Shown: positions 46,841 to 58,395 of the stretch, one piece after another
Layout: the number at the start of each line of letters is the position of its first letter
Numbering within the stretch: position 1 is the first letter of the stretch
Assembly (NCBI GenBank): GCA_938015445.1
Contig: CALLPE010000011.1
Span: 29,438-93,437, forward strand
Length of the DNA: 64,000 nt
From: an uncultured Pirellulales bacterium
Lineage (GTDB): Bacteria > Planctomycetota > Planctomycetia > Pirellulales > Thermoguttaceae
Direction of reading: 5' to 3'
Position numbers and translations under genes: made by a program
The notes under the pieces: model-generated
The model's input: only the letters and a program-made list of their open reading frames with translations
Database searches by the model: none
What the model was told of the DNA's origin: nothing

Positions 46841-49660
46841 CTACGGCGAGACCGAGGGCGGCTTATCGTCGGCGGGCTGCTGCTTTTCGAGCACTTTGGG
46901 TTTGCCTTGCACGATGGCGTCGATGAGCAAGTACTGCAAGTTGAACACTTGCATCAAGGCGTCATCGGGGATGACATCCAGCAGGAATCCCATGTTGGCG
47001 TCGCAGAAGCGGTTGCCGAAGCCCACTACCCAGACTTCCCCTTTACCGTACTTGGCCCTGCTGCCTACAGGTGTGCCGCCTAGACGTGCAAACGGCTCGC
47101 CACCCGACACTTCTCGGGCGTGCGCCACCGGCACGCGCGGCCAGTTCCAATCCGGCTGGAGCAGCCCGGCGGGTTCCTCCATGGCACGCAGCTCGATGCC
47201 GAAAGGCTCCAATAGCACGTTGGCGGTGGACTGCTCATTGTCGGCCGAGTCGATCAGCAGCAGCTTGCCGCCGTCGGCCACGTACTGTTCCAGCCGCTGA
47301 AGGTAGCGTGGGGAAGGCTGCCGATTCGGATAGATGACCACCACCACGTCGGGGCGCGAAGACGCTCGGTCCGTACGGCCGAATACTTCCAGGCCTTTGC
47401 GTTGGGCGGTGAAGTAGCCCAATCGCAGTATCCAGCGCTCGAAGATGCCGAACCCTTGCTGTTGGCCGGTGATGAAGCCGTTTTTGGGGAGCACGGCTGC
47501 GCTGACGGTGCGGTCCATCGCCAAGCGCACTAGTGGGCTGTGCGGTTCCGGGGGTGGCATCGCCCGGTGATAGCCCCACAGAATCACCGGCCCACAAAGC
47601 CCGAACCCGCACAATCCGGCCCCCAGCAACGTGAACCACGAGTCGGTCCAATGGGCGGCAAGAACGACCGCCGCTACCAGTGCCATAATCCCCAGGGCGA
47701 ACCACAGCCAGCGGGGCAGGAGGTAATCGTTGCGGCGGTGGAGCCACTCGATCATGTTGATCCACAGTTCGGCCTTGCCAGGCTCGAAGGTGCAGAAGTT
47801 CGAGAAGATGGTCGAATCGCTAAAAGCCAGTACGCGACCTTTGCCGTATCGGGTGGCCCAGAGCTGAACGAACGCGCCGTAGCGCATCTCTGGGCTGTCG
47901 ACGGCTTGCGGGTAGAAGTTGCGTACATGATAATCGGCCATGCGGTTTTTCAGTCCTGTGCCCAGTATGGCCGCTCTCCCGCCCCCAAACGGCTCGATAG
48001 TAGCCGAGGTGGCGAAGTCCATCTCCTCCACGTGTAGCACTGCCGGATGGGGCAGCAGCGTGCGGCGGTACACATCGTCGAAGAACGAGTCGATGCCGAA
48101 GGCGCAATCCAGTCGGAAGCGGAAACCGAAGCGCTCGGCAATCGGATTCAAATACGTGCTGGTACCGTATACATCGGTATGTTCGCCGATTAGCAGCAGA
48201 CCGCCTCCCCGTTCCACGAAGCGGACGACGGATTCGATCTCCTCGTCCGAAAAAGGCCGGGTGGGAACTTTTATTATCAGCACGGCGCAGCCCAACAGCA
48301 TCTTGTCGTCCAGCGGGGTGGCCACTCGCTTGAAGTCGTAGAACTTGGCGCTGTAGTTGGCGATGGAGTAGTAGTTGTAATTGGCGTCGTGTCCGTACCA
48401 GGTGACGTCGTAGGGCCTATCGACCCGCTCCCAGACTTTATTCGGATCAGGATTGTATTCCTCTACCAACACCTCGCCTCGCACCCGGTAGCCCGGCGGA
48501 TCATAGCACACCGCCGCCGTCAGCACCGCGCCGGCCAGCAGCGCGCACACAACGGCAGCCACCGGCCTGAACCACGCCGGCAGTCGCTCTAGTAGCTTTT
48601 GAGGCCCGCGATAGCGTTGGCGGGCTTCGCTTGCCAGTCGGGTGATAAGTGGTTGCGGGCTTGGGTGCTGGCCCTCAGCCGCAGCAGGCGCCGCAGTAAA
48701 ACGCCAACTCATCACCGCCGGCGGCAGAATCATCAACAGGTGTAGCCAAGGATTCCAAAAGATGCGCATGGCTTCCAATGGGGCGTCGTAGTCGGTGCGC
48801 AGCACATCGTTCAGGTACAGGGCGATCATCACTCCGGCTCGCACCGGAAGCCACAATGCCGTAAGCAGTACCACCATCCCCAGCCGCGAAAGCCAACGCA
48901 GCCACCACCAACGCTTTTGGGAATTCGCCGGGGTTTGCCACGCCAAATACACGGCAGACCCGACCAGGAAGCACATCGTCACCGGTCCGACCAGCAAATC
49001 CCAGGTAGGCGCCAGTCGATGGTTTTCCCGCATCGAAAACACCGTGACCATCTGGCCGTACAACCACGAGTGGCTAGCGCAAGCGTCCACTCCCAGCATT
49101 CGTACCACGGCGGCCAGCAGGTTGCTGAGCAGCGGCGGCAGATCGTGCGATCGGGCCGTAAGAGTCTGATACGCCCACAGCGACAACCATTGGGCGAGCA
49201 TGATCGCGCCGCCGGCGATCATCGCCCCGCCAACCCGCTGCCCTGCCCCGGTTAGCCGGCGAGATAAAGCCGTCGTTTGCAAAACCGCTGCGCCCAACAC
49301 CAACAGCACCATCGCTGCCGGATACGGCAGCAACTCGGCTGGTTTGTCTTGTACCCAGGCGCGCCAGTACGGCCACAGCGAAAAGACAAGCGCCGGGGTG
49401 ATCAATCCGGCAGCGAGCAACGCTTGAGACCGCGTGGGCGCCCCGCCGATTCCGCTGGCCAACAGCGCGATACCCAACACGACCATCAGGCCCCAGGCAG
49501 GCCAGGTCGAATCGGGGTACGCCTCCAGACGCAGCATTAGGGCCACTTGTTCAGCCAGCACATCCCACTGCTGCGGCCACTTGGTTTGACGATAGTGGCT
49601 CACACCCCATAGCCACGAGGCCGATAGCAACGCCACGCCAATCCACCCCAGCAGTCTCAC
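46841..49660 (-). CDS. Giant polytopic membrane protein (939 aa) with two GldG/ThuA-like (class-I glutamine-amidotransferase-like, DUF4350-like) extracytoplasmic domains.
   Basis: Multiple N-terminal TM helices. 'VLIIKVPTRPFSDEEIESVVRFVERGGGLLLIGEHT ... RVLAFSDSTIFSNF' and 'VVVVIYPNRQPSPRYLQRLEQYVADGGKLLLIDSADN ... VWVVGFGNRF'. Its start overlaps the stop of the upstream gene by 4 nt. Confidence 0.7.
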   Translation of the reverse strand: MRLLGWIGVALLSASWLWGVSHYRQTKWPQQWDVLAEQVALMLRLEAYPDSTWPAWGLMVVLGIALLASGIGGAPTRSQALLAAGLITPALVFSLWPYWRAWVQDKPAELLPYPAAMVLLVLGAAVLQTTALSRRLTGAGQRVGGAMIAGGAIMLAQWLSLWAYQTLTARSHDLPPLLSNLLAAVVRMLGVDACASHSWLYGQMVTVFSMRENHRLAPTWDLLVGPVTMCFLVGSAVYLAWQTPANSQKRWWWLRWLSRLGMVVLLTALWLPVRAGVMIALYLNDVLRTDYDAPLEAMRIFWNPWLHLLMILPPAVMSWRFTAAPAAAEGQHPSPQPLITRLASEARQRYRGPQKLLERLPAWFRPVAAVVCALLAGAVLTAAVCYDPPGYRVRGEVLVEEYNPDPNKVWERVDRPYDVTWYGHDANYNYYSIANYSAKFYDFKRVATPLDDKMLLGCAVLIIKVPTRPFSDEEIESVVRFVERGGGLLLIGEHTDVYGTSTYLNPIAERFGFRFRLDCAFGIDSFFDDVYRRTLLPHPAVLHVEEMDFATSATIEPFGGGRAAILGTGLKNRMADYHVRNFYPQAVDSPEMRYGAFVQLWATRYGKGRVLAFSDSTIFSNFCTFEPGKAELWINMIEWLHRRNDYLLPRWLWFALGIMALVAAVVLAAHWTDSWFTLLGAGLCGFGLCGPVILWGYHRAMPPPEPHSPLVRLAMDRTVSAAVLPKNGFITGQQQGFGIFERWILRLGYFTAQRKGLEVFGRTDRASSRPDVVVVIYPNRQPSPRYLQRLEQYVADGGKLLLIDSADNEQSTANVLLEPFGIELRAMEEPAGLLQPDWNWPRVPVAHAREVSGGEPFARLGGTPVGSRAKYGKGEVWVVGFGNRFCDANMGFLLDVIPDDALMQVFNLQYLLIDAIVQGKPKVLEKQQPADDKPPSVSP

Positions 49661-52600
49661 GGTTGCGGCTCCTCATCACCGCGTGCCACCTGCTCTGTGC
49701 GCTGGCCCGAGCCAGCCGTTTGCCCGGCGGCCGACCTTTCCGGCGGCACAGCAGGGTTCGGCGGCAAGAGCGAAGAATCGGACGGCACAGGCGAAGAGTC
49801 GGGCGGCAGAAGCAACGGGCCGGACGGCGGCTGGTCCATCGGTTCGGGCATCGCTGGCGGCCGCGGCCCATCCGGCGGAGGTTGTTGTTCAAGCTGCAAT
49901 AACTCTGGCGGCTGCTCGGCGGCTGGTGGGCGCTGGACCGGCTTCGGCACCGGAGGAATCCACGGCGGCGCGTCTTCTAGAGCGGCGATGAACCACCGCC
50001 AGAAGTCGGCGTTCTCGTACATCAGGTCGAACGGACCGCCGTCCTCGCGCTCCAGATTCTTATTCAAAGCGAACCCCGAATCGCCAATCACCGCCACACG
50101 TCCCCGGCCGTAATTGCGTACCACGATCATCGGGCCGTCGTCCGGGTGGGCCGCGATCACCTTCATGCGATGTTCCGGGCAGTCGCACTCCACCGGCCAG
50201 CCGCAGTGGAAACGAACGAAGTTACGCGCCCGTCCGTCAGGATAGTATAAATAAGGCAGTTTGAAGTAGCGCCACATGGGCGGTGGGCCCAGCGTACCTT
50301 CGTACCGCTGTAATTGACCAACGCGGAAGCCAAACTCGCCCAGCATTTGCCGACTGGGCGCGATGTCTTCGTAGCCCACCGTCCAGATCAACACCCCTCC
50401 GCAGCGTACAAAACGTTTGACCGTCTCGCGCTCCTGCGCGCTGAACGGGCGGTCAGGGGCGATGACTACATACATTTGGGCCTTGATACGCCAACGTTTC
50501 AGTTCCTGGCGCGCCAGCGAGATGTCTTCGTCTTCCGGTTCGTCGGGGCGTGGGGGTTTGATGTCGGTCGGCGCTTCCTCCGGCGCGATCCGCTGCAATA
50601 GCCGCTCCTCGGTCAAGCGGCTGAGACTGAGCGTCAGATAGCCGTTGCGCATCAAGGTAAGAAACAGCCCCGCCGTACCGTCCTCGCGCCACGACTCGAA
50701 GCTATAGCGGTTCAAATGGGCGGCGTCCACGTAAGCCAGCTTGCGCGGGGGATCGGGCGCTGGCCGTTTGCCGATCCACGATTCACCCGCCTCCCCAGTC
50801 GATTCTTGCGCCTCTCTGTCGCCCGACGGTCGATTCTCGGGCGCGTCGCGAGACAGTTCGGCCAGCGACTTGCAATCGGGAGTGATTTCCCAATTGCGCC
50901 AACTCAGTACGGTGCTTACCACCAGGGCGATGGCCAGCGCCACTGTAGCGGTCAGCATAGGCCATACGGCGGGACACCACAGCACCAGCGCTGCCAAAGC
51001 CGCAGCGGCCAGCACGCAGCACACCTGCCGCCAGCCGGCTTGGGTCCAACCGCCCGCATCCACTAAGTATGCCATTAGGCGCGAGACGTACTCGTGGCAA
51101 TTGATCGTCAGCCCGTTGCTCATCAGCGACGTATCGCCGAAGACCACCACGCGCCCTTTTCCTAACGGCTCTTCGGCCGCCAGAACCAAATCGCCCAATC
51201 GTTCGCCGGGATCATATAGATGATTGCCCATCTTACTGGCCCCTGCCTCGCGATCGCCCGGATCGGCCCAACCCCAGCGGCCGACCAGTATCGGTCGGGC
51301 GGGCCAACGCAGCGTACCCAGCCGGGCGACGGCAGGTTCCACCGGGCAGTCGATGCCCGGCTCGCAATCGGAGTCAGAATGGGCCGCAGCGGTGTCGGCC
51401 TGGACGGAGTCCGCCTGGGCTTCGGCGGATGCCTGTCCATCAGGCGGCGCATGTTCGGCCCCTTTGGTCATGGCGAGCTTGTTATCGGCCGATGGCTTGT
51501 AGTCCGCGCAGCCCAGACTTGCGCCAATCACCACGCCGAACTCGTTTTGCTGATCGCCTATGCCGGCGGTAGTTGGATGCGACACCGTATCGTAGCTGTG
51601 CAGCCATCCGCCGATGGCGAAGGTGGCCGAATCGAACGCTACCCGCACGCTGGTGGGACGCAGCACATCGTTGAATCGTGCTCCGCCGCCTTCTTCCGGC
51701 GCTTCGTCGACTGTATGTTCGCCCAATACCAGCAACGAGCCGCCGGCGCGCACGAACTGCCACAACCTTCTCAGTTGGCCCTTCTGCCAGGGTTTATTGG
51801 GGTAAATCAGCACCACGGCCTGGGCGCCGGCAAGGTCTTCTTCCGAAAGGTTCTCGGAAACCAGCACCTGGATGCCGTAACTCCGCAAAAACGACGGCAA
51901 CATGCCATACATGCCGATGGAAAGGCGTCCGTACTGGCCGTGCTCCGGACGCAGCCAGTTGAGGAATCCTTCCTGATAGATGACCACTTTCTTGCCCTGC
52001 ACCTCAGGCCGATGCCACGACAGATTGCCCACGGCAGCAAACAATACCGCCACAAGTACCATTGCAAGGGTCAGCCAGCGCGTTGCAATGTGATTGGCGC
52101 CGCTGACGGTCGCGTCGGACGACTGCTCCGCCAGTCGGCCCAAAGCAAGCGATACTAAGGGCGAATCGATGCGGTCGTCGCCAACGCCGCCTATCGGAGT
52201 CTGTTGACCGGCGATTGTCGCCGCCTGCGACCCCGCCGCTATGGCCTGGTTGTTCGAGCGCAACGCCAGCCATAACATCAGGCCGGCTAGCAAGCTGTGA
52301 ACAACCGCCGCTGTGGCCGGAAAGTTCCAAATAAGCAATTCGCGCAGCCATCTTTCCAGCGAAGAAAGTTTCGCCACGGCATCTGGTGATAAACTGCCCG
52401 GCCTAAGTTGCGGATAACGCTCCAGAACAGCCCCGGTGCTCGAAAGCAATAGCAGATAAACGAAATGAGCCAGAAGCACAAGCAACACGAGTACGAAGAC
52501 CTGTACGGCGGCGGGCAAGCGGCGCCCCAGCGGCTTGCCTACGCGCAGCGGCAACAGCACTGCCAGACAGAGCATCGGCACGAGGAAATCCAGCCCTGCC

Positions 52601-53223
52601 ATCGTAGCCCCGATGCACAGCGGCCAGCCGGTAATCGCCGCAGCCAGCTCGCCCAACCGCTGCCCAAGGTGGTTGGCCACGATCCACCCTATTGCAGCAG
52701 AAGCGTAAGTAGCACGGTAAACCGCAAAAACGGCCAGCGCTGCGCCAACGGTTACGAAAGTTCTGCGCTGGGGTTCGGGCGTTCCGACGGCCAGCGCCAC
52801 CAACAGCACTCCTGGGGCCATGCAGGTCACTGCCGGAAGCTCAGCAGCAGCCAGCCACACGGCGACAACAATCCCCAACACGGCGCAACCCAATGCGGTC
52901 AATCTGCGCCGACGCGCAGCAGCCAACTGTCGCGGCAAAGCCTCCTCGGCAAGCGAATTCCTTAGCGCCAAACTTCCCAGCGGGCTGGCAAATAGCAACA
53001 CGATGCCCAAAACGATCCACAGCAGTGCCCTACGCAACGGATGGGCCATCAGGCCCGTAGAACCAGCAGCGAGCCATGCCCCTAATAAGGCTGCTAAGCA
53101 CGCTACGAGCTGTCCGCGGATCGATGCGCGCACAATGGCAGCGACGTCCTGGCCGGCAGCGGGGCAGTCAGCCTCGGACTTCTCTGCCCGATCGAACGCC
53201 GGTTTCGACCTCGACTCGTTCAA
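49657..53223 (-). CDS. Giant polytopic membrane protein (1188 aa), paralogous in architecture to 46841..49660: two GldG/ThuA-like domains and a Pro-rich C-terminus.
   Basis: 'AVVLIYPNKPWQKGQLRRLWQFVRAGGSLLVLGEHT ... RVVVFGDTSLMSNG' and 'MYVVIAPDRPFSAQERETVKRFVRCGGVLIWTVGYE ... RVAVIGDSGFALNKN'. More than 10 predicted TM helices. By my reading the first codons do not fit the displayed bases exactly, so the start may be off by a few nt. Confidence 0.68.
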   Translation of the reverse strand: MNESRSKPAFDRAEKSEADCPAAGQDVAAIVRASIRGQLVACLAALLGAWLAAGSTGLMAHPLRRALLWIVLGIVLLFASPLGSLALRNSLAEEALPRQLAAARRRRLTALGCAVLGIVVAVWLAAAELPAVTCMAPGVLLVALAVGTPEPQRRTFVTVGAALAVFAVYRATYASAAIGWIVANHLGQRLGELAAAITGWPLCIGATMAGLDFLVPMLCLAVLLPLRVGKPLGRRLPAAVQVFVLVLLVLLAHFVYLLLLSSTGAVLERYPQLRPGSLSPDAVAKLSSLERWLRELLIWNFPATAAVVHSLLAGLMLWLALRSNNQAIAAGSQAATIAGQQTPIGGVGDDRIDSPLVSLALGRLAEQSSDATVSGANHIATRWLTLAMVLVAVLFAAVGNLSWHRPEVQGKKVVIYQEGFLNWLRPEHGQYGRLSIGMYGMLPSFLRSYGIQVLVSENLSEEDLAGAQAVVLIYPNKPWQKGQLRRLWQFVRAGGSLLVLGEHTVDEAPEEGGGARFNDVLRPTSVRVAFDSATFAIGGWLHSYDTVSHPTTAGIGDQQNEFGVVIGASLGCADYKPSADNKLAMTKGAEHAPPDGQASAEAQADSVQADTAAAHSDSDCEPGIDCPVEPAVARLGTLRWPARPILVGRWGWADPGDREAGASKMGNHLYDPGERLGDLVLAAEEPLGKGRVVVFGDTSLMSNGLTINCHEYVSRLMAYLVDAGGWTQAGWRQVCCVLAAAALAALVLWCPAVWPMLTATVALAIALVVSTVLSWRNWEITPDCKSLAELSRDAPENRPSGDREAQESTGEAGESWIGKRPAPDPPRKLAYVDAAHLNRYSFESWREDGTAGLFLTLMRNGYLTLSLSRLTEERLLQRIAPEEAPTDIKPPRPDEPEDEDISLARQELKRWRIKAQMYVVIAPDRPFSAQERETVKRFVRCGGVLIWTVGYEDIAPSRQMLGEFGFRVGQLQRYEGTLGPPPMWRYFKLPYLYYPDGRARNFVRFHCGWPVECDCPEHRMKVIAAHPDDGPMIVVRNYGRGRVAVIGDSGFALNKNLEREDGGPFDLMYENADFWRWFIAALEDAPPWIPPVPKPVQRPPAAEQPPELLQLEQQPPPDGPRPPAMPEPMDQPPSGPLLLPPDSSPVPSDSSLLPPNPAVPPERSAAGQTAGSGQRTEQVARGDEEPQP

Positions 53224-53465
53224 TGCTCGCTTGGCTCCCTCAGCAAAACATTTGACTTATACAGCAGGTGCATATACAGCAGAAGCACAGCTCTTGCGAA
53301 ACACCGGCAAGCAGGCCACAACAAACACTGTGCAATAAGACAACGAGGGCGGCCTTCTGGCGAAGACCACCCTCATTTGTACACTACAGTTCAATTGTCC
53401 GCATCACCAACGTTGGCGAAACCGCGGGATTCCGCCTTAACGATGGCAGCACGATTACAACACGA

Positions 53466-54443
53466 TTACAAATCGCGCGGCGGCAACTTGGGCGCTAAAA
53501 CGCCCACCACTTCGTTCACCGCAGCCGTCGTCTCCGTGCCGTTCGGCGGTTCTGGTTGCTCTGGTGGTCGGCAAACCGTAGGATCTGCAACGCAAGCCGT
53601 CGCTACAGCCGGGCACTTGGTCTCTTCGACCGGGCACTGCGTATCGACCGCCGGGCATTTGGTGGCGATCTTCGGGCAGCGGGTCTCGACCACCGGGCAG
53701 CGAGTCTGCAAAGCGTCAGGGCACGAGGTTACTTGCACCGGGCACTGCGTGTCGACCGCCGGGCACTTGGTTTTAACCTGGGGACACTTGGTTACTTCGA
53801 CCGGGCACCGGGTGTTGACCACCGGACACTTGGACGCATACGGCGGGCAATTGGTGTCGGTCACGGGGCAAACGGTCCTCTGCGTCGGGCAAACCGTGGG
53901 TGCGACCTGAGCAGGGCATTGTGTCTCCACCGAAGGACACCGCGTCTTGGCCGCCGGGCAAGTAGTGACCTGCACCGGGCACCGCGTGTCGGCGGTCGGG
54001 CACTTGGTAGCTGCCGGCGGGCATTTCGTTTCCACCGCCTGGCACCATGTGTCGGCGGTCTTGCACGCCGTCACCGCCGGCGGGCACTTGGTCTGCACCG
54101 CTGGACAGTAAGTGTCCACTGGCGCGCACTTTGTCGGCGCCCGCACAAGCGAACACTGCGTCTCGGCCACAGGGCACCACGTCGCTGCCGGTGGGCATTT
54201 AGTGAGTTTGGCAGGGCAACGAGTTTCGACCGCCACGCAGAATGTCTCCACCGGAGCACAAAGCGTCGCTCGTACTGGGCAGCGAGTCTCCACCGCAGGA
54301 CACCACGTAGCCGCTGCCGGCATGATCGTCGGCGGCGGCACACCTGGCCCATTGCCATTGCCGTTCCCGTTTGTCTGGGCCAAGCCGGCCGTACACAACA
54401 ATCCGATCACCATCACAACACCGACCATCCGGAGCATACGCAC
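53466..54443 (-). CDS. Secreted Cys/Thr-rich protein built from about 35 tandem heptads 'CPxxxTx'.
   Basis: Strong SD 'AAGGAGGTG' 6 nt before the ATG. Signal peptide 'MRMLRMVGVVMVIGLLCTAGLAQT', then 'NGNGNGNGPGVPPP', then ...CPAVETRCPVRATLCAPVETFCVAVETRCPAKLTKCPPAATWCPVAETQ.... The underlying 21-nt DNA repeats are diverged but the protein periodicity is conserved. Confidence 0.8.
   Translation of the reverse strand: MRMLRMVGVVMVIGLLCTAGLAQTNGNGNGNGPGVPPPTIMPAAATWCPAVETRCPVRATLCAPVETFCVAVETRCPAKLTKCPPAATWCPVAETQCSLVRAPTKCAPVDTYCPAVQTKCPPAVTACKTADTWCQAVETKCPPAATKCPTADTRCPVQVTTCPAAKTRCPSVETQCPAQVAPTVCPTQRTVCPVTDTNCPPYASKCPVVNTRCPVEVTKCPQVKTKCPAVDTQCPVQVTSCPDALQTRCPVVETRCPKIATKCPAVDTQCPVEETKCPAVATACVADPTVCRPPEQPEPPNGTETTAAVNEVVGVLAPKLPPRDL
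53570..54325 (-). repeat. About 35 tandem 21-nt coding repeats (consensus minus-strand reading TGCCCG..N..ACN..., giving Cys-Pro-x-x-x-Thr-x).
   Basis: Visible 21-nt periodicity 'CGGGCACTGCGTGTCGACCGC / CGGGCACTTGGTTTTAACCTG / ...' on the plus strand. The units have diverged, so this is not a recent slippage expansion. Confidence 0.8.
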
Positions 54444-54659
54444 CTCCTTTCAGCCAGCGTCAGAAAAGAAAATAAGCTCAACGATTTCGCGACCCGTCAA
54501 CTGTCGTTTTTATCACCGTTGCCCAAATCAGTCAATGATATTGCAATCGTTTTTTGTAAAAAAATGCCCTTTTTATGCAGACGCCGTCTACGCTAAAATT
54601 GCGGCCCGTTTTTTGGGGCCAAACATCCGCTGAATACCCTCGTTCAGTGGTACCGCCAC

Positions 54660-56369
54660 ATGCCGCTTGCAGACTGGCCGCAGTTATATCGTGCTTTTTG
54701 GAAAGCACTTAGGGCGACAGTTAACTCGGCGAAAAAGCACTCTCTATGGCTTGTCCTGCTGGCTGGCCTGATTCTTTGGGGGTGGATGGATGTACGCCAA
54801 CGGGGCTTCATTCGTCACGATTCGCCAGATGACCACAAAACCGACCTGACCGTTTACACAGAAGCCGCAGCGGCCTTCTTCGACGGCCGTCGTCCCTACG
54901 AAGTCGCTAACCCCCGCGGCTGGACGTATCTGTACCCACCGATTTTCGCCCTGCTTGTGGCCCCATTGCGGTATTTGCAACCGCAAGATCAAGTATTCGT
55001 CTGGTTCTTGTTTTCGCTGGTGTTTTGCTTTGGCTGCTACGCAGAAATGCGCAGGCTGTTTCGCGCCGTAGCAGCGCAGCCGGGTGGTACCGACAGCCCA
55101 GCCGAATGCCCTGCACTGCCCCGGACCGACGCGGAGCGGCCACCGGCTGACTGCGGGGCTGCCAATCTACTAACACTTGGCCAGTCCAACTTCTCTGCCT
55201 GCGAGCCGGTGGGCTATCGCAGCGCTTTGGCCCCAATGTTGGGCTGGTTGGCTGTTGCCGCCGCTGCGCTACCGACGCTGAATTGTTTGCAGCGTGGGCA
55301 GGTGGGCGTGCTGAAACTTTACCTGTTGCTCCTCGGAGTGCGGCTGGTGTTGACCGGCCGCAGCGGCTTGACGTGTCTGGCCGGAGGCGCGATCCTAGCG
55401 CTGCCGGTGGTTATGAAGATCATTCCCGCCGTGCCAGTCGGGGTCTTCTTGGTGGCACTTGCCGCCAGCGGATGGGCGGCAGGCAGAGGCCGCTCGGGCG
55501 CCGCACCGCAAATCGACCCCGGGAAGACCCAGTTGGCCCAATGTACAATTCCACCGGTCCATCGGGCGAGAATGGCACTGGTGGGCGCCGCCGTGGGAGT
55601 GTTGTTGTTTGCGTTGCTAGTGCCGAGCGCATTGCTCGGCTGGAAAAACAACTTGGAGCATCTGAAGACCTGGGCCGATATGATGCTCGCCAAGGCTGAC
55701 GACGGCGGACTAGACCCGCGCTCAGGCAACTCGCGCTCCGCCCGAAATCAAAGCCTGCATAACGCCGTGGTCCGGCTGGGGAACTTCGCCATGTACCTAG
55801 CCGGAGCAGGTCCAGACGATCAGGACGTACCCCTGACCGCCCAGCAGCCATTGCCGCCGATGCCCATGGACCACCCGGCGGCTCAGTACAGCCTTATCTT
55901 CGCCCGGGCCGTGCTGCTGGCAGCGGTGCTAACCGTCGCCTGGCAGTTGGGAAGGGCTGGCTCTCGGCTCGATTTGGCAAACGCTTTGGGGCTAGGTTGC
56001 GTGGCGATGTTAGTAATCTCCCCAATTGCCCGAGGACATTACTTTATGCTGTACGTTCCCGCGGTGGTCTTCCTACCGTTGTGGCTACAGCAACGCGGCG
56101 ACCCGAGAGTTCGGGGAAAGTCGCTGGCCATGGTGCTGACCGTGATCCCGCCGCTGTTGGTGGTGGCACATTATGCGCTTTTACCGGTAGCGGGACGAAT
56201 GGGACTGCTGGGGTTGGGTACAGCCGGCTGGCTGTTGACGGCTCTGGTAACCTGCGACCGATTGATGGCGGTTTCCCGAAATCGCACTGTGGCAGATGGT
56301 GCTACCGATGATCATCGGCTGCTGAGGCTGACAGCAGCGGATTTACCCCAGCAGCGGGCGGCAGCTTGA
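54660..56369 (+). CDS. Polytopic membrane protein, GT-C-type glycosyltransferase-like (DUF2029/GT87-like).
   Basis: More than 10 TM helices. N-terminal loop 'RRPYEVANPRGWTYLYPPIFALLVAPL' resembles the DUF2029 family conserved region. Divergent from the Cys-repeat gene across an AT-rich region. Confidence 0.6.
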   Translation: MPLADWPQLYRAFWKALRATVNSAKKHSLWLVLLAGLILWGWMDVRQRGFIRHDSPDDHKTDLTVYTEAAAAFFDGRRPYEVANPRGWTYLYPPIFALLVAPLRYLQPQDQVFVWFLFSLVFCFGCYAEMRRLFRAVAAQPGGTDSPAECPALPRTDAERPPADCGAANLLTLGQSNFSACEPVGYRSALAPMLGWLAVAAAALPTLNCLQRGQVGVLKLYLLLLGVRLVLTGRSGLTCLAGGAILALPVVMKIIPAVPVGVFLVALAASGWAAGRGRSGAAPQIDPGKTQLAQCTIPPVHRARMALVGAAVGVLLFALLVPSALLGWKNNLEHLKTWADMMLAKADDGGLDPRSGNSRSARNQSLHNAVVRLGNFAMYLAGAGPDDQDVPLTAQQPLPPMPMDHPAAQYSLIFARAVLLAAVLTVAWQLGRAGSRLDLANALGLGCVAMLVISPIARGHYFMLYVPAVVFLPLWLQQRGDPRVRGKSLAMVLTVIPPLLVVAHYALLPVAGRMGLLGLGTAGWLLTALVTCDRLMAVSRNRTVADGATDDHRLLRLTAADLPQQRAAA

Positions 56370-56523: not shown

Positions 56524-58395
56524 TTAGCTCGGCTTCTTCTCGCCGCCGTTGGCCAGTCCCAGCCGGGCCAGCCAGCGGCCGCGGGCGGGCTTGTCTGTTT
56601 CGGGGGGCTTTGCTTCGCCGGCCGCTTGCAGCTCGCGGAGTTTTTCTTCCAGTTGCAAACGTTCGCGGGCGATGCGAGCCCGTTCCAGCGAAAGCTCGAT
56701 CTCCGCTTCGCGCAGTTTTTCGTGCCATTGCTGCTGTAGCTTTCGCAGGTTCTCGCGTTCCTCTTGGATAATGGCGTCCTTGTCGAGAATCTCGCCCAGG
56801 GCCGCTGCCCCGACAGCCACCGCGCCCAGGTTGCTTGCCTGCGCGTCGAGTAGCTGCCTGAGTTCTGCGATTTCCCGATCCTTCTCGGCGATTATCGCGT
56901 CGGTGCGCTGGATGATCTCTTCGATTCTGAGGCGTTGTTCCCTGGCGGTGTCCGACTCTTCTTCCTCGGCCGACTCCAACATCGCCAAAATACGCCGCTT
57001 TTCCGCCTCCCAATCGAGCTTCCCGCCCGCAAAACCACCGGCTGTTTGCGCCGTGCTGGAAACTCTAGCAAGCTGCTGCTGCAACTCGGCGTTTCGGGCC
57101 TTTAGCTCCCGCAGGTCCTCTAAAGCCAGTTCGTACAAGCGGCGGAAGTCTTCTTCGGGCGGTTGGTCTTGTGCCGCCGTGTCCTCGGCTGCGACCGAAA
57201 TGCGCCGCGCCAGTTCCTCTTGTGCTTCGAGCAACTGCTGGTTCAGCAGCTCGAGCTGTCTGCGGCTTTCGGCAAGTGCAGCCTCGGTGGCCGCCGCCTT
57301 GGCCTCGGATTGCTCCAGCCGTTGGGTGGCCTGCGCCAGCCGCTCCTCGGCCGCCACGACGCGCTGTTGCGATTGACTGAGTTGCCGGGCGACATCTGCC
57401 ACTTGCTCGGCGGTTTCGGCCAGGCGGCCCTCGGTGGCGCTGAGCCGCCGAAGCAGCTCGTCGCGCTCGGCTTGCAGTTGTTCCAGTTGGCTGCCTTCCG
57501 AAGTAGCTACAGCGGCCGGCTGGTTAGCAAGCTGCTGAAGAAGCTGTTCCTGACGCGCCCGCAACGCTTGCAGTTCTGCTGTCTGCTGGGCGTAGGCCTG
57601 TCGGGCCAGTTCCAGTTGATGCTGAAGCTGTTGCAGTGCCGTTTGATCGCGGTGCTCCAGTTCGGCCTGCAAACGTCGCAACTGCTTCCACTGGGAGGTA
57701 TGTTGGCTTCTGAGCGCTTCGGCGATGCGACGTCGCTGCAACTCGGTTTGTTGCCGCCGCTGGAGCACCTCCTGTTGCTCAGCTTGAATACGGCTTTCCA
57801 TCTCGGCAAGCTGCCTTTCCTTGGCCGCCAATTCAGCCCGCTGGCGTTCCAACTGGCTGCGCAGGGCGTCGAGTTGTTGCAACTGCGCAGCGTGCTGGTT
57901 GCGGGCCAATTCCAGCTCGTGCCGCTGCTGATGCAGTTGGGCTTCCTGGGCGATGAGTGCCTCGCGGGCAGCGCGCAGTTCCTCCCGGCGTTGGTCCAAC
58001 TCGTCCTGCTGCTGGCGGATTTGTTGCAGCAAGGCCTCGTGCTGCTTGGCGCTGCGCTGGTGGAGTTCTTCCCACTGGAGTTGCCGGGCATCGTACTCCT
58101 TGCGAAGTTCCTCCAGAGCGGCGATCTGCCGGCTGAGCTGCTCGCTGCGGCGTTGGATTTCCTCTCGGGCCTGAATGGTTTCGGCCCGGTTGCGAGCCAG
58201 TTCATCGGCCAACAACTGCAACTGGGCGGCCAGTTGTGCCTGGGCGCGTTTGAGCCGGTCTTGTTGTGCGGCCAGAAATTCGCGCACCCGGTCGCGTTGC
58301 TGGTGCAGAGTGGCGGAGAAGTGCTCTCCCCAATTGCTCTGCTCGGCAGAAAACACTGGCACTGCCATGTCCGCCCCGATAATCCGCCCCGACAT
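56524..58395 (-). CDS. Long coiled-coil protein (623 aa, rich in Q/E/R/L/A).
   Basis: Continuous heptad-like 'LQQLDALRSQLERQRAELAAKERQLAEMESRIQAEQQE ...'. The same-size plus-strand ORF (57163..59082) is its Leu-rich antisense shadow. A short minus-strand N-terminal non-repetitive segment supports this strand. Confidence 0.62.
   Translation of the reverse strand: MSGRIIGADMAVPVFSAEQSNWGEHFSATLHQQRDRVREFLAAQQDRLKRAQAQLAAQLQLLADELARNRAETIQAREEIQRRSEQLSRQIAALEELRKEYDARQLQWEELHQRSAKQHEALLQQIRQQQDELDQRREELRAAREALIAQEAQLHQQRHELELARNQHAAQLQQLDALRSQLERQRAELAAKERQLAEMESRIQAEQQEVLQRRQQTELQRRRIAEALRSQHTSQWKQLRRLQAELEHRDQTALQQLQHQLELARQAYAQQTAELQALRARQEQLLQQLANQPAAVATSEGSQLEQLQAERDELLRRLSATEGRLAETAEQVADVARQLSQSQQRVVAAEERLAQATQRLEQSEAKAAATEAALAESRRQLELLNQQLLEAQEELARRISVAAEDTAAQDQPPEEDFRRLYELALEDLRELKARNAELQQQLARVSSTAQTAGGFAGGKLDWEAEKRRILAMLESAEEEESDTAREQRLRIEEIIQRTDAIIAEKDREIAELRQLLDAQASNLGAVAVGAAALGEILDKDAIIQEERENLRKLQQQWHEKLREAEIELSLERARIARERLQLEEKLRELQAAGEAKPPETDKPARGRWLARLGLANGGEKKPS

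What the first reader, a model, noticed from the sequence alone, without database searches (positions are those of the whole stretch)
53466..54443. Secreted protein composed almost entirely of about 35 'CPxxxTx' heptads (one Cys plus one Thr every 7 residues)
After a signal peptide and an (NG)4 spacer, the protein is a nearly uninterrupted run of 7-residue units such as CPAVETR/CPVRATL/CPAKLTK/CPVQVTT. It has about 35 cysteines at strict 7-residue spacing with Thr at position 6 and Pro at position 2. The 21-nt DNA units are diverged while the protein period is preserved, which points to purifying selection on a structured repeat rather than recent slippage. The gene has a near-consensus SD (AAGGAGGTG). 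I know of no described family with this heptad. The regular Cys/Thr spacing suggests a disulfide- or metal-ladder solenoid, possibly metallothionein-like, antifreeze-like, or a surface-fibre subunit.
Basis: seen in the sequence. Interest (0 to 1): 0.8.

Follow-up and report, generated by a model that had tools for sequence, protein, structure and literature searches.

The report
Cysteine-heptad stalk protein with dedicated membrane partners
This real, strongly conserved gene encodes a secreted protein built from 34 copies of the seven-residue unit Cys-Pro-x-x-x-Thr-x, an undescribed repeat that occurs in many uncultured Planctomycetota and Verrucomicrobiota and is nearly always encoded just upstream of two large uncharacterised membrane proteins, which points to an unknown cell-envelope system.

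Summary
Window 53466..54437 (-) encodes a 323-aa protein: signal peptide, (NG)4 spacer, then 34 C-P-x-x-x-T-x units (35 Cys; 31 of 34 spacings are exactly 7). The start is probably the ATG 6 nt downstream of the GTG, which belongs to the Shine-Dalgarno site. The frame is real: GC3 fits the genome, and two orthologues keep the array unit for unit with dN/dS 0.04-0.09.

No Pfam, NCBIfam, PDB or literature match exists. The heptad is a module found in several hundred protein clusters (692 profile hits at E<=1e-3, false positives included). Among genome loci with 10 or more heptads, nearly all are uncultured PVC bacteria. It sits where the stalk sits in fibrillar adhesins, next to DUF7901/GEVED, PstS, LTD or dockerin domains.

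The main new result is synteny. The array gene is followed by two paralogous polytopic membrane proteins with GldG/IFT52-like DUF4350 domains (M1 49657..53223, M2 46841..49660). Of 36 metagenome loci found through M2 alone, 34 carry a heptad-array gene upstream.

Best reading: a disulfide-stapled, extended envelope stalk or fibre module handled by a dedicated M1/M2 complex. The window protein is the stalk-only form. Structure and biochemistry remain unresolved: AlphaFold gave no stable fold, and solenoid, antifreeze and metallothionein readings are unsupported.

The parts
53466..54437 (-). Heptad-array protein gene: 323 aa from the ATG at 54437, or 325 aa if read from the GTG at 54443. Stop codon at 53466-53468.
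   Evidence: The exact 323-aa product is called in public assemblies. GC3 is 0.72, like the neighbouring genes. dN/dS is 0.04-0.09 against the orthologues in L124 and L126.
54443..54449 (-). Shine-Dalgarno site AAGGAGG, 5 nt upstream of the ATG.
   Evidence: Sequence read directly.
54378..54437 (-). Predicted Sec signal peptide MLRMVGVVMVIGLLCTAGLA, with probable cleavage after GLA.
   Evidence: Sequence. It is the only helix in the AlphaFold model. The cleavage site is inferred; no signal-peptide predictor was available.
54348..54371 (-). (NG)4 spacer. Relatives have GP/NG-rich spacers at this position.
   Evidence: L036 and L082 have QSGPGPGP and QNGPGPGP here.
53571..54302 (-). Array of 34 C-P-x-x-x-T-x units (35 Cys), preceded by the lead-in PPPTIMPAAATW.
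   Evidence: The units are kept one for one in the orthologues, including the irregular units CSLVRAPTK, CPAQVAPTV and CPDALQTR.
53469..53570 (-). C-terminal tail. Its end, ..AAVNEVVGVLAPKLPPRDL, is conserved in the orthologues and aligns with the C-terminal cap CPx[VIL][DE]..CP[TS][VI][VI]..[KR] of other array proteins, but has lost both Cys.
53342..53377 (-). 16-bp GC-rich hairpin between the array gene and M1. It could be a partial terminator or an mRNA stabiliser.
   Evidence: The intergenic RNA folds with z = -3.7. The function is inferred.
49657..53223 (-). M1: 1188-aa polytopic membrane protein. It has about 9-10 N-terminal TM helices, a DUF4350/GIFT-like domain, a further TM helix, a second domain and a Pro-rich tail.
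   Evidence: Pfam DUF4350 at 65.7 bits. Hydropathy analysis. It lies downstream of array genes in 18 or more genome loci and in the metagenome loci. Public gene calls agree.
46841..49660 (-). M2: 939-aa paralogue of M1. Its start overlaps the end of M1 by 4 nt.
   Evidence: Pfam DUF4350 at 62.9 bits and ABC_transp_aux at 42.5 bits. A PDB profile search hits only IFT52 GIFT and the GH42 middle domain, at E about 1e-4. Synteny.

Best explanation
**What it is.** The gene encodes a Sec-exported protein that is essentially a bare CPxxxTx stalk. This heptad is an undescribed tandem-repeat module of envelope or surface proteins in uncultured PVC bacteria (Planctomycetota, Verrucomicrobiota, Kiritimatiellota, Lentisphaerota).

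**Proposed mechanism.**
- After export, each unit is kinked by its Pro and braced by its Cys and Thr.
- The array forms a long, non-globular, beta/PPII-like rod.
- The evenly spaced cysteines form disulfides. These are more likely in-register between chains or between molecules than strictly pairwise within one chain.
- The result is a covalently stapled fibre or stalk. In relatives it holds a globular cargo domain (DUF7901/GEVED, PstS, LTD, dockerin) away from its anchor point and ends in a short conserved C-terminal cap.
- The two downstream polytopic membrane proteins M1 and M2 form a dedicated inner-membrane complex. This complex receives, anchors, assembles or matures array proteins.
- The window protein is the cargo-less form: a fibre or matrix subunit.

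**Shown.** The gene and its frame, the repeat, purifying selection, modular use of the array, and the three-gene synteny.

**Inferred.** Export, disulfides, the rod shape, and what M1/M2 do.
For: **Real, selected gene.** GC3 and codon use fit this frame only. The orthologues are collinear unit for unit with dN/dS 0.04-0.09.

**Module.**
- In 2,668 heptads from about 70 proteins, Pro2 is 89% and Thr6 is 97%, with Ser only 1%.
- The profile finds 692 clusters at E<=1e-3 among 1.84 billion representatives. Of the 137 new proteins among the 150 listed, 118 have at least 5 true heptads.
- Arrays run from 10 to more than 150 units, almost all in PVC genomes assembled from metagenomes.

**Stalk position.**
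- The array lies C-terminal to globular domains in 59 of 118 representatives, N-terminal in 22, and alone in 19.
- Of 29 cassette-linked array proteins, 17 carry DUF7901, 16 GEVED and 2 dockerin.
- GEVED is the domain that precedes stalk repeats in fibrillar adhesins (PMC10952558).
- PstS, LTD and T9SS-CTD fusions also occur.

**Non-globular.** AlphaFold predicts no fold from the single sequence. It gives only short strands at x5-T6-x7 with the pseudo-alignment, and these match nothing in the PDB.

**Cassette.**
- M1/M2 is the only conserved neighbour family.
- The order array, M1, M2 on one strand holds in 18 or more genome loci, whatever the cargo domain.
- Independent gene calls agree.
- Reciprocal test: of 36 loci retrieved by M2 homology with at least 4.5 kb upstream, 34 carry an array gene upstream on the same strand.

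**Cys parity.** It is not conserved: 36 even against 38 odd, and 35/34/35 among the orthologues. This argues against an obligatory all-intramolecular pairing.

**C-terminal cap.** A conserved cap sits at the extreme C-terminus of many array proteins.
Against: - There is no experimental datum of any kind. Export, disulfides, localisation and any M1/M2-array interaction are all inferred.
- The variable positions are also strongly conserved between orthologues (89-91% aa identity at 80% nt identity). That is more than a passive spacer would need and hints at a specific fold or binding surface.
- The best AlphaFold model comes from a pseudo-alignment of shifted repeats. Only one of five models was confident.
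- The N-terminal membrane domains of M1 and M2 match no characterised family, so their role is a guess.
- Seven of 21 array loci with enough downstream DNA lack M1/M2 in cis. Two M1/M2 pairs lack an array upstream.
- The cassette was seen only in uncultured lineages.
Confidence: 0.45

Rival explanations
1. A bacterial mucin-like domain. The invariant Thr of every heptad is O-glycosylated in the periplasm. M1/M2, whose GIFT-type domains were proposed to bind sugars, are the glycosylation machinery or a lectin-like handler. The array would be a glycan-coated brush rather than a disulfide rod.
For: - Thr6 is 97% and Ser only 1%, which looks like an enzyme sequon.
- The composition is Pro/Thr-rich.
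- The array profile cross-hits eukaryotic mucin-type PPGTT heptads.
- M1/M2 carry GldG/IFT52 GIFT-like domains.
- A GT87 (GT-C type) gene sits divergently next to the window gene.
Against: - The GT87 neighbour is not conserved next to other cassettes.
- The M1/M2 membrane domains give no GT-C, PMT, Wzy_C or other glycosyltransferase hit, even at E<=10 across 40 homologues.
- Glycosylation does not explain the invariant Cys.
- The [DE]-T-[KRQ] context does not fit the Bacteroidota D-(S/T)-(A/I/L/V/M/T) motif (my knowledge).
Confidence: 0.2
2. A thiolate-based metal- or haem-binding polymer, either metallothionein-like or an array of Cys-Pro haem-regulatory-type motifs. It would store or scavenge metal or haem in the periplasm or outside the cell.
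For: The mature protein is about 11.5% Cys (35 of 303 residues), and 25 of the 31 canonical units have a CP dipeptide. Cys parity is not conserved, which is compatible with free thiols. One fusion partner, PstS, is a solute-binding protein.
Against: - The cysteines are isolated, one per 7 residues and each followed by Pro. They are not in the CxC/CxxC clusters that define metallothioneins.
- There is no Pfam metallothionein or haem-binding hit.
- An extracytoplasmic location favours oxidation.
- The reading explains neither the invariant Thr nor the DUF7901/GEVED/dockerin architectures.
Confidence: 0.07
3. A disulfide-braced beta-solenoid of the insect antifreeze type. Two heptads would make one 14-residue coil with a cross-coil disulfide and Thr ladders, serving as an ice- or crystal-binding surface.
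For: A regular Cys period with a conserved Thr recalls Tenebrio AFP (12-residue coils) and midge AFP (10-residue coils) (my knowledge). The strands in the AlphaFold model centre on x5-T6-x7.
Against: - The units show no two-heptad periodicity in composition or similarity.
- Higher-order repeats of 3, 4 and 5 units occur.
- Cys parity is random.
- AlphaFold does not produce a solenoid, and there is no structural match.
- Each unit has one Thr, not a TxT face.
Confidence: 0.03
4. The repeat ORF is not the expressed product. It would be a 21-nt DNA repeat, or one of the long antisense ORFs (53556..54596 +, 53377..53910 +) would be the gene.
For: Long antisense ORFs exist. Dispersed non-coding 21-bp repeats that read CPxxxTx do occur in Pseudonocardiaceae genomes and in viral contigs.
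Against: - The units are only 55% identical at the DNA level.
- GC3 is 0.72 in the heptad frame and 0.57 in the antisense frame.
- dN/dS is 0.04-0.09 in this frame with dS above 1.
- The same protein period is conserved across phyla with unrelated DNA.
- A Shine-Dalgarno site and a signal peptide are present.
Confidence: 0.01

Closest known systems
YTV-domain cysteine-rich cell-wall proteins of Planctomycetales (Pfam PF07639; Hieu 2008 and Mahajan 2020, as cited in PMC8567305)
   Same: Both are secreted, Cys- and Pro-rich repetitive envelope proteins of planctomycetes. The YTV proteins were recovered from cell-wall preparations.
   Different: There is no YTV Pfam hit even at E<=10. The repeat is different, a strict 7-residue CPxxxTx. 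The taxonomic range is different: uncultured Pirellulales, Phycisphaerae and Sedimentisphaerales plus Verrucomicrobiota and Kiritimatiellia, against Planctomycetales only. No M1/M2 cassette is reported for YTV proteins.
Stalk repeats of fibrillar adhesins (head domain, GEVED, stalk, anchor; PMC10952558, PMC8286594)
   Same: In 16-17 of 29 cassette-linked proteins the array follows DUF7901/GEVED domains and runs to a short C-terminal element. This is the place a stalk occupies. Copy number varies widely between proteins, from 10 to more than 150.
   Different: Known stalks are strings of folded Ig-like or similar domains of 60-100 aa, sometimes stabilised by isopeptide bonds. Here the unit is 7 residues with one Cys. 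No LPXTG, T5SS or T1SS anchor is present. The window protein has no head domain.
Immunoglobulin hinge, especially the IgG3 hinge with repeated CPRCP and Thr/Pro-rich segments (my knowledge)
   Same: Cys-Pro motifs are set in a Pro/Thr-rich extended segment. In the hinge they form an in-register ladder of inter-chain disulfides and a rigid rod. Parity of Cys does not matter in such a ladder, which matches.
   Different: This is an analogy only, with no homology. The period differs and the array is 10-100 times longer. Oligomeric state is unknown here.
Disulfide-braced antifreeze solenoids (Tenebrio molitor AFP, 12-residue TCTxSxxCxxAx; midge AFP, 10-residue coils) (my knowledge)
   Same: Very short Cys- and Thr-containing tandem units with a strict period.
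   Different: There is one Cys and one Thr per unit, no TxT face, no even-unit periodicity and no solenoid prediction.
Chlamydial outer-membrane complex cysteine-rich proteins OmcA/OmcB (my knowledge)
   Same: This is another PVC-superphylum solution in which intermolecular disulfides between Cys-rich envelope proteins provide rigidity.
   Different: There is no sequence similarity and no heptad repeat. Chlamydiae did not appear among the array-bearing genomes.
GldG / IFT52 GIFT-domain proteins (Pfam ABC_transp_aux PF09822, IFT52_GIFT PF23355, DUF4350 PF14258), for M1 and M2
   Same: In M2, a class-I-glutamine-amidotransferase-like GIFT domain is flanked by TM helices, as in GldG. M1 has the same domain family.
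   Different: M1 and M2 have an extra N-terminal domain of about 9 TM helices with no family match, and a second such soluble domain. No ABC ATPase or permease genes are conserved nearby. No function is known for DUF4350.

Membership tests
YTV cysteine-rich cell-wall proteins (PF07639) | Match to the YTV repeat profile | tested here: not met
   hmmscan against Pfam-A at E<=10 returns only a sub-threshold MSG hit.
Metallothionein | Clustered CxC / CxxC / CC motifs and a match to a metallothionein family profile | tested here: not met
   Cys spacings are 7 (31 times), 8 or 9. There are none of 1-3. No Pfam or NCBIfam hit.
Metallothionein | Stoichiometric metal binding by thiolates | not testable with these tools
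   Needs purified protein.
Insect-type disulfide-braced antifreeze beta-solenoid | Coil-length repeat of 10-12 residues with two Cys per coil and a TxT ice-binding strand | tested here: not met
   The unit is 7 residues with one Cys and one Thr. There is no period-2 signal.
Insect-type disulfide-braced antifreeze beta-solenoid | Beta-solenoid fold | tested here: inconclusive
Fibrillar adhesin | N-terminal signal peptide and long tandem-repeat stalk | tested here: met
   Relatives.
Fibrillar adhesin | Adhesive head domain | tested here: not met
   The window protein has no domain besides the array. Relatives have DUF7901/GEVED, but adhesive function is unproven.
Fibrillar adhesin | Known cell-surface anchor (LPXTG, T5SS, T1SS, T9SS CTD) | tested here: not met
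   None is present in the window protein. Only one distant relative has a T9SS CTD (P0014). A family-specific C-terminal cap exists instead.
Lanthipeptide / RiPP precursor | Leader peptide plus adjacent dehydratase/cyclase or other maturase genes | tested here: not met
   A Sec-type signal peptide is present instead of a leader. The only conserved neighbours are M1/M2. No Lan, YcaO or rSAM domains occur in the neighbourhood.
DUF4350 (PF14258), for M1 and M2 | Profile match above the gathering score | tested here: met
   M1 65.7 bits and M2 62.9 bits against a cut-off of 30.4.
GldG-like ABC transporter auxiliary component (PF09822), for M1 and M2 | Profile match above the gathering score | tested here: inconclusive
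   M2 42.5 bits, above the cut-off of 34.7. M1 30.2 bits, below it.
GldG-like ABC transporter auxiliary component (PF09822), for M1 and M2 | Adjacent GldA/GldF-type ABC ATPase and permease genes | tested here: not met
   No other gene family is conserved in 47 array loci. None appears in the called neighbourhoods.
GT-C glycosyltransferase / Wzy_C O-oligosaccharyltransferase / exosortase, for the N-terminal membrane domains of M1 and M2 | Detectable profile similarity of the polytopic domain | tested here: not met
   Twenty M2 and 20 M1 N-terminal domains were scanned at E<=10. The only recurrent hits are weak: DUF7649 in 9/20 (best E 0.014) and TcpE in 7/20 (best E 0.001). No NCBIfam hit.

The most novel reading that the evidence does not exclude
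The array gene, M1 and M2 constitute a previously unrecognised envelope-assembly or anchoring system of PVC bacteria. In this reading a heteromeric M1/M2 membrane machine recognises the CPxxxTx array or its C-terminal cap. It then polymerises, cross-links or anchors these proteins into covalent disulfide-laddered fibres. Such fibres could act as surface stalks, or as periplasm-spanning tethers or rulers. One survey detected no known outer-membrane tethering system in Planctomycetes (bioRxiv 10.1101/2021.05.31.446380). This would be a new class of sorting or assembly pathway, comparable in kind to sortase, chaperone-usher or T9SS substrate systems.
Probability: 0.25. Interest if true: 0.9.

Novelty: new variant of a known kind. 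Interest (0 to 1): 0.72.

Why it matters
- **Open question.** The make-up of the PVC cell envelope has been debated for decades: long described as proteinaceous, with cysteine-rich YTV proteins recovered from cell-wall preparations (PMC8567305) and no known outer-membrane tether detected.
- **What is new.** This is a widespread, strongly selected, wholly unannotated repeat module with one Cys, one Pro and one Thr per 7 residues. It is genetically coupled to two uncharacterised giant membrane proteins, which gives a concrete, testable candidate system.
- **Annotation.** The result defines a repeat family missing from Pfam and NCBIfam, and gives DUF4350-type M1/M2 proteins and DUF7901/GEVED proteins their first functional context.
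- **Structure.** A 7-residue Cys-stapled rod would be a new structural principle and of possible interest as a biomaterial.

Tried and rejected
1. **Family and structure searches for the array.** Pfam, NCBIfam and PDB sequence searches found nothing except chance granulin and MSG hits.
2. **Single-sequence AlphaFold.** It gave no fold.
4. **Profile search in the 5.8-billion-sequence word-indexed database.** It returned only 8 short hits, probably through word or bias filtering. The exhaustive representative search worked.
5. **GT87 neighbour as a functional partner.** Rejected, because it is not conserved outside close relatives.
6. **14-residue (two-heptad) structural period.** There is no odd/even signal.
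7. **Even Cys count as a sign of intramolecular pairing.** Absent.
8. **M1/M2 N-terminal domains as GT-C, Wzy_C or exosortase.** No support. The N-terminal domains of M1 and M2 are not detectably homologous to each other.
9. **Topology of M1/M2 from hydropathy and positive-inside counts.** Contradictory, so not used.
10. **Viral contigs.** They hold only short perfect 21-bp DNA repeats.
11. **Single-match genome hits in Pseudonocardiaceae.** They are non-coding 21-bp minisatellites.
12. **DUF7901 against the PDB.** Only a marginal 36-aa cupredoxin-like match.
13. **Literature.** Seven full-text searches found no description of the heptad or the cassette.
14. **Organism identity.** Not resolved beyond Planctomycetota (DUF1570, PVC-type cassette). 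The contig is from ENA assemblies ERZ6863514/ERZ6864144 and Logan runs ERR92876xx/ERR9287890.
Full report
**1. The observation**

The ORF at 53466..54443 (-) is present. Its translation has 36 cysteines. One lies in the N-terminal hydrophobic segment and 35 lie in a block whose successive spacings are 7 (31 times), 9 (twice) and 8 (once). In the 31 canonical units, position 1 is Cys in 31/31, position 2 is Pro in 25/31 and position 6 is Thr in 30/31. Positions 3-5 favour A/V/P, V/A and E/D/A, and position 7 favours K/R/Q.

Shuffling the same composition 10,000 times never gave more than 9 spacings of exactly 7, against 31 observed. A degenerate DNA pattern for three consecutive units matches 10 times in the window, where none is expected.

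The 21-nt units average only 55% nucleotide identity. Tandem Repeats Finder reports only two short 63-nt duplications.

One correction concerns the start. The GTG that opens the ORF is the end of the Shine-Dalgarno sequence: GGAGG at 54447-54443, a 5-nt spacer, then ATG at 54437. Both orthologues begin at the equivalent Met. Public gene calls contain exactly the 323-aa product from the ATG and not the 325-aa version.

**2. It is a real, selected gene in this frame**

- GC3 is 0.72 in the heptad frame, against 0.67-0.75 in neighbouring genes. It is 0.57 in the 346-aa antisense ORF, and codon usage also favours the heptad frame.
- Two metagenome contigs carry close relatives of the whole locus, with M2 75-76% identical (L124, L126). 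They encode the same protein unit for unit, and the three irregular units CSLVRAPTK, CPAQVAPTV and CPDALQTR sit at the same places.
- Over the 684-nt array, nucleotide identity is 80% while amino-acid identity is 89-91%. dN/dS is 0.04-0.06 against the window and 0.09 between the two relatives, with dS above 1 against the window.

**3. No known family**

- Pfam-A at E<=10 gives only a sub-threshold MSG hit, and NCBIfam gives nothing.
- The PDB by sequence gives only granulin, at E = 0.48.
- Every source name found for relatives is 'hypothetical protein'.
- Seven full-text literature searches found no description.
- The nearest described planctomycete proteins are the cysteine-rich YTV cell-wall proteins (PMC8567305). 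They are a different repeat, and the YTV profile does not match.

**4. The heptad is a module**

*Sequence relatives.* A first search found 24 relatives, each from a single contig or a handful, in Planctomycetota genomes assembled from metagenomes and in metagenomes. In them the same heptad array is fused to PstS, a lamin-tail domain, a T9SS C-terminal domain, DUF7901/GEVED or DUF7450.

*Genome scan.* I scanned one genome per GTDB species for three consecutive units. The loci with 10-155 heptads in one ORF are almost all from PVC genomes assembled from metagenomes. These include Pirellulales, Planctomycetaceae, Phycisphaerae, Sedimentisphaerales, Tepidisphaeraceae, Humisphaera, Verrucomicrobiales, Akkermansiaceae, Kiritimatiellia and Victivallales.

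*False positives.* Single-match loci in Pseudonocardiaceae, and all IMG/VR hits, are short non-coding 21-bp DNA repeats.

*Consensus.* Across 2,668 heptads, Pro2 is 89% and Thr6 is 97%, with Ser only 1%.

*Family size.* A gapless profile of ten-heptad windows (A1) was searched against 1.84 billion cluster representatives. It finds 692 proteins at E<=1e-3, 188 at E<=1e-10 and 46 at E<=1e-30. Of the 137 new proteins among the 150 listed, 118 have at least five true heptads. The rest are Cys-free Pro/Thr repeats such as a sea-urchin mucin-like protein, or AHNAK2.

*Position in the protein.* The array is C-terminal to other domains in 59 representatives, N-terminal in 22, essentially alone in 19 and internal in 18.

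**5. The conserved cassette (the main new result)**

*Gene order in the window.* Immediately downstream of the array gene, on the same strand, lie two large genes. M1 is 49657..53223 (1188 aa). M2 is 46841..49660 (939 aa) and overlaps M1 by 4 nt.

*Domain content.* Each has a polytopic N-terminal region. Hydropathy gives about nine helices in M2 and about nine to ten in M1, before a DUF4350/GldG/IFT52-GIFT-like domain. In M2, two more helices and a second soluble domain follow. In M1 the hydropathy scan found one further helix before the second domain. A profile of M2 hits only IFT52 GIFT and the GH42 middle domain in the PDB, at E about 1e-4.

*Forward test.* tblastn of the window's neighbours against the array loci shows M1 and M2 in the order array, M1, M2 in at least 18 loci. 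These come from Planctomycetota, Verrucomicrobiales and Kiritimatiellia, and the order holds whether the array protein is array-only, DUF7901+array or array+PstS. The divergent GT87 gene has no counterpart there. An all-against-all comparison of ORFs in 47 array loci finds M1/M2 as the only conserved neighbour family. Independent gene calls show the same arrangement. Of 21 array loci with at least 2.5 kb downstream, 14 have M1/M2. The exceptions include the giant Akkermansiaceae/Victivallales-type proteins.

*Reciprocal test.* An alignment of ten M2 homologues (A2) was used to pull 80 metagenome loci with no reference to the array. Of the 36 loci with at least 4.5 kb upstream, 34 have a CPxxxTx array ORF of 18-153 heptads upstream on the same strand. 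The two exceptions have ordinary genes upstream.

*Distribution.* M2 has at least 289 homologues at E<=1e-20. The source names that appear among the 120 listed are all from genomes assembled from metagenomes and read 'hypothetical' or 'DUF4350 domain-containing'.

**6. What the architecture says**

- Of 29 cassette-linked array proteins, 17 carry DUF7901, 16 GEVED and 2 dockerin. The rest, like the window protein, are array-only.
- GEVED was defined as the domain that sits between the ligand-binding head and the stalk repeats of fibrillar adhesins (PMC10952558). The heptad array therefore occupies the stalk position.
- Many array proteins end in a short cap, CPx[VIL][DE][VA]xCP[TS][VI][VI]..[KR], at the extreme C-terminus. 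The conserved tail of the window protein, AAVNEVVGVLAPKLPPRDL, aligns with it but has lost both Cys.
- A 16-bp hairpin lies between the array gene and M1. It is compatible with high expression of the structural gene and lower read-through into M1/M2. This is inference.

**7. Structure**

- AlphaFold on the single sequence gives pLDDT 36 and no secondary structure beyond the signal helix.
- With the pseudo-alignment A1, one of five models reaches pLDDT 74.5, with short strands centred on x5-T6-x7. The other four score 30-54.
- Because the alignment rows are shifted repeats, I treat the model as unreliable.
- There is no odd/even periodicity between units, and higher-order repeats of 3, 4 or 5 units occur. 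This speaks against a fixed 14- or 21-residue coil.
- Cys parity is random: 36 even against 38 odd among 74 signal-peptide-bearing array proteins, and 35/34/35 in the three orthologues. An obligatory all-intramolecular pairing scheme is therefore unlikely. In-register inter-chain ladders, as in the IgG3 hinge (my knowledge), or network cross-links are compatible.

**8. Mechanism proposed**

Shown:
- an exported-looking, repeat-only protein;
- strong selection on every unit;
- modular use of the array as the linker or stalk next to diverse extracytoplasmic domains;
- tight genetic coupling to M1/M2.

Inferred:
- The array is an extended, Pro-kinked, disulfide-stapled rod.
- M1 and M2 form a membrane complex that anchors, assembles or matures array proteins, possibly through the C-terminal cap.
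- The window protein is a cargo-less fibre or matrix subunit.

I put 0.45 on this overall picture. Confidence is much higher for the descriptive parts: about 0.97 that the gene is real, and about 0.9 for the module and the cassette. It is lower for what M1/M2 do.

Rivals:
- O-glycosylated mucin-like brush with M1/M2 as the glycosylation or lectin machinery: 0.2.
- Thiolate metal or haem binding: 0.07.
- Antifreeze-type solenoid: 0.03.
- Non-coding or antisense: 0.01.

The M1/M2 membrane domains show no GT-C, Wzy_C or exosortase similarity, and the N-terminal domains of M1 and M2 are not detectably related to each other.

**9. Novelty and importance**

The repeat and the cassette are undescribed. 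As a kind of thing, it is best classed as a new variant of the tandem-repeat stalk or linker of secreted proteins. Two features are unprecedented: a 7-residue Cys/Pro/Thr unit, and a dedicated pair of uncharacterised membrane proteins.

The most novel reading not excluded is a new envelope assembly or anchoring pathway in PVC bacteria. One survey detected no known outer-membrane tethering system in Planctomycetes (bioRxiv 10.1101/2021.05.31.446380).

Limits:
- All evidence is computational.
- The lineages are uncultured.
- The cassette does not appear among the source names seen for cultured model planctomycetes.

Noticed in passing
window 54660-56369 (+): A GT87-family (GT-C type) membrane glycosyltransferase gene lies divergent from the array gene. 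It is conserved in the window's own close relatives (L204-L206) but not next to other heptad cassettes. Public gene calls use either a 569-aa or a 527-aa start.
   Followed up: yes
window 53342-53377 (-) and 53450-53471: A 16-bp GC-rich hairpin lies in the 242-nt gap between the array gene and M1. An 11-nt direct repeat, CACGATTACAA twice, overlaps the array gene's stop codon. This could be an attenuator or mRNA stabiliser. The intergenic RNA folds with z = -3.7.
   Followed up: partly
L002, L016, L025, L043, L053, L083, L084, L092, L099, L117 (Haloechinothrix halophila); L033, L046, L057; L018, L051, L054, L096, L115; L052, L086: Pseudonocardiaceae genomes contain many dispersed short 21-bp tandem DNA repeats. 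They translate as CP[AT][LF][RP]T[PL] in one frame but are bounded or interrupted by stop codons. This is a dispersed non-coding minisatellite family, unrelated to the PVC protein module.
   Followed up: partly
L077, L093, L011, L055, L038: Akkermansiaceae, Victivallales, Kiritimatiellia and Verrucomicrobia genomes assembled from metagenomes encode giant array proteins, with up to 155 or more heptads in ORFs longer than 1700 aa that are cut by locus ends. Four of the five (all but L055, whose N-terminus is cut off) share an N-terminal domain (...GHYYPEYF...KPTIFP). Where 2.3 kb or more of downstream DNA is available (L077, L093, L011, L055), no M1/M2 is present. This may be a second, independent use of the module.
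   Followed up: partly
L104, L149, P0001, P0022: Signal peptide, then a heptad array of about 45 units, then a PstS phosphate-binding domain. This is a phosphate-binding protein on a stalk about 300 residues long, and it is also followed by M1/M2 (L104).
   Followed up: partly
P0059 (Diadema setosum XP_072175733.1), P0090 (AHNAK2): The heptad profile cross-hits Cys-free eukaryotic Pro/Thr heptads such as PPGTTAG mucin-like repeats. These are false positives, but they show that the P...T part of the unit is mucin-like.
   Followed up: yes
window 49657-49920 (-), C-terminus of M1: M1 ends in a proline-rich tail of about 90 residues (PPWIPPVPKPVQRPPAAEQPPE...LLPPNPAVPPERS).
   Followed up: no
P0002 residues 149-184 (DUF7901): The DUF7901 cargo domain shows a marginal 36-residue similarity to the cupredoxin domain of copper nitrite reductases (E about 0.004). 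Too weak to interpret.
   Followed up: partly
L122 791-9222 (-): In one Planctomycetota genome assembled from a metagenome, the cassette is preceded, divergently, by a DUF4159/DUF4350 membrane protein followed by a gene with no domain hit, ExbB, two ExbD genes and a TPR protein. This was not seen in the other loci examined.
   Followed up: no
window 56524-58395 (-): A 623-aa ORF with no Pfam family and only weak SMC-like (coiled-coil) NCBIfam similarity. It is conserved next to the locus in the window's close relatives (L204, L205).
   Followed up: no
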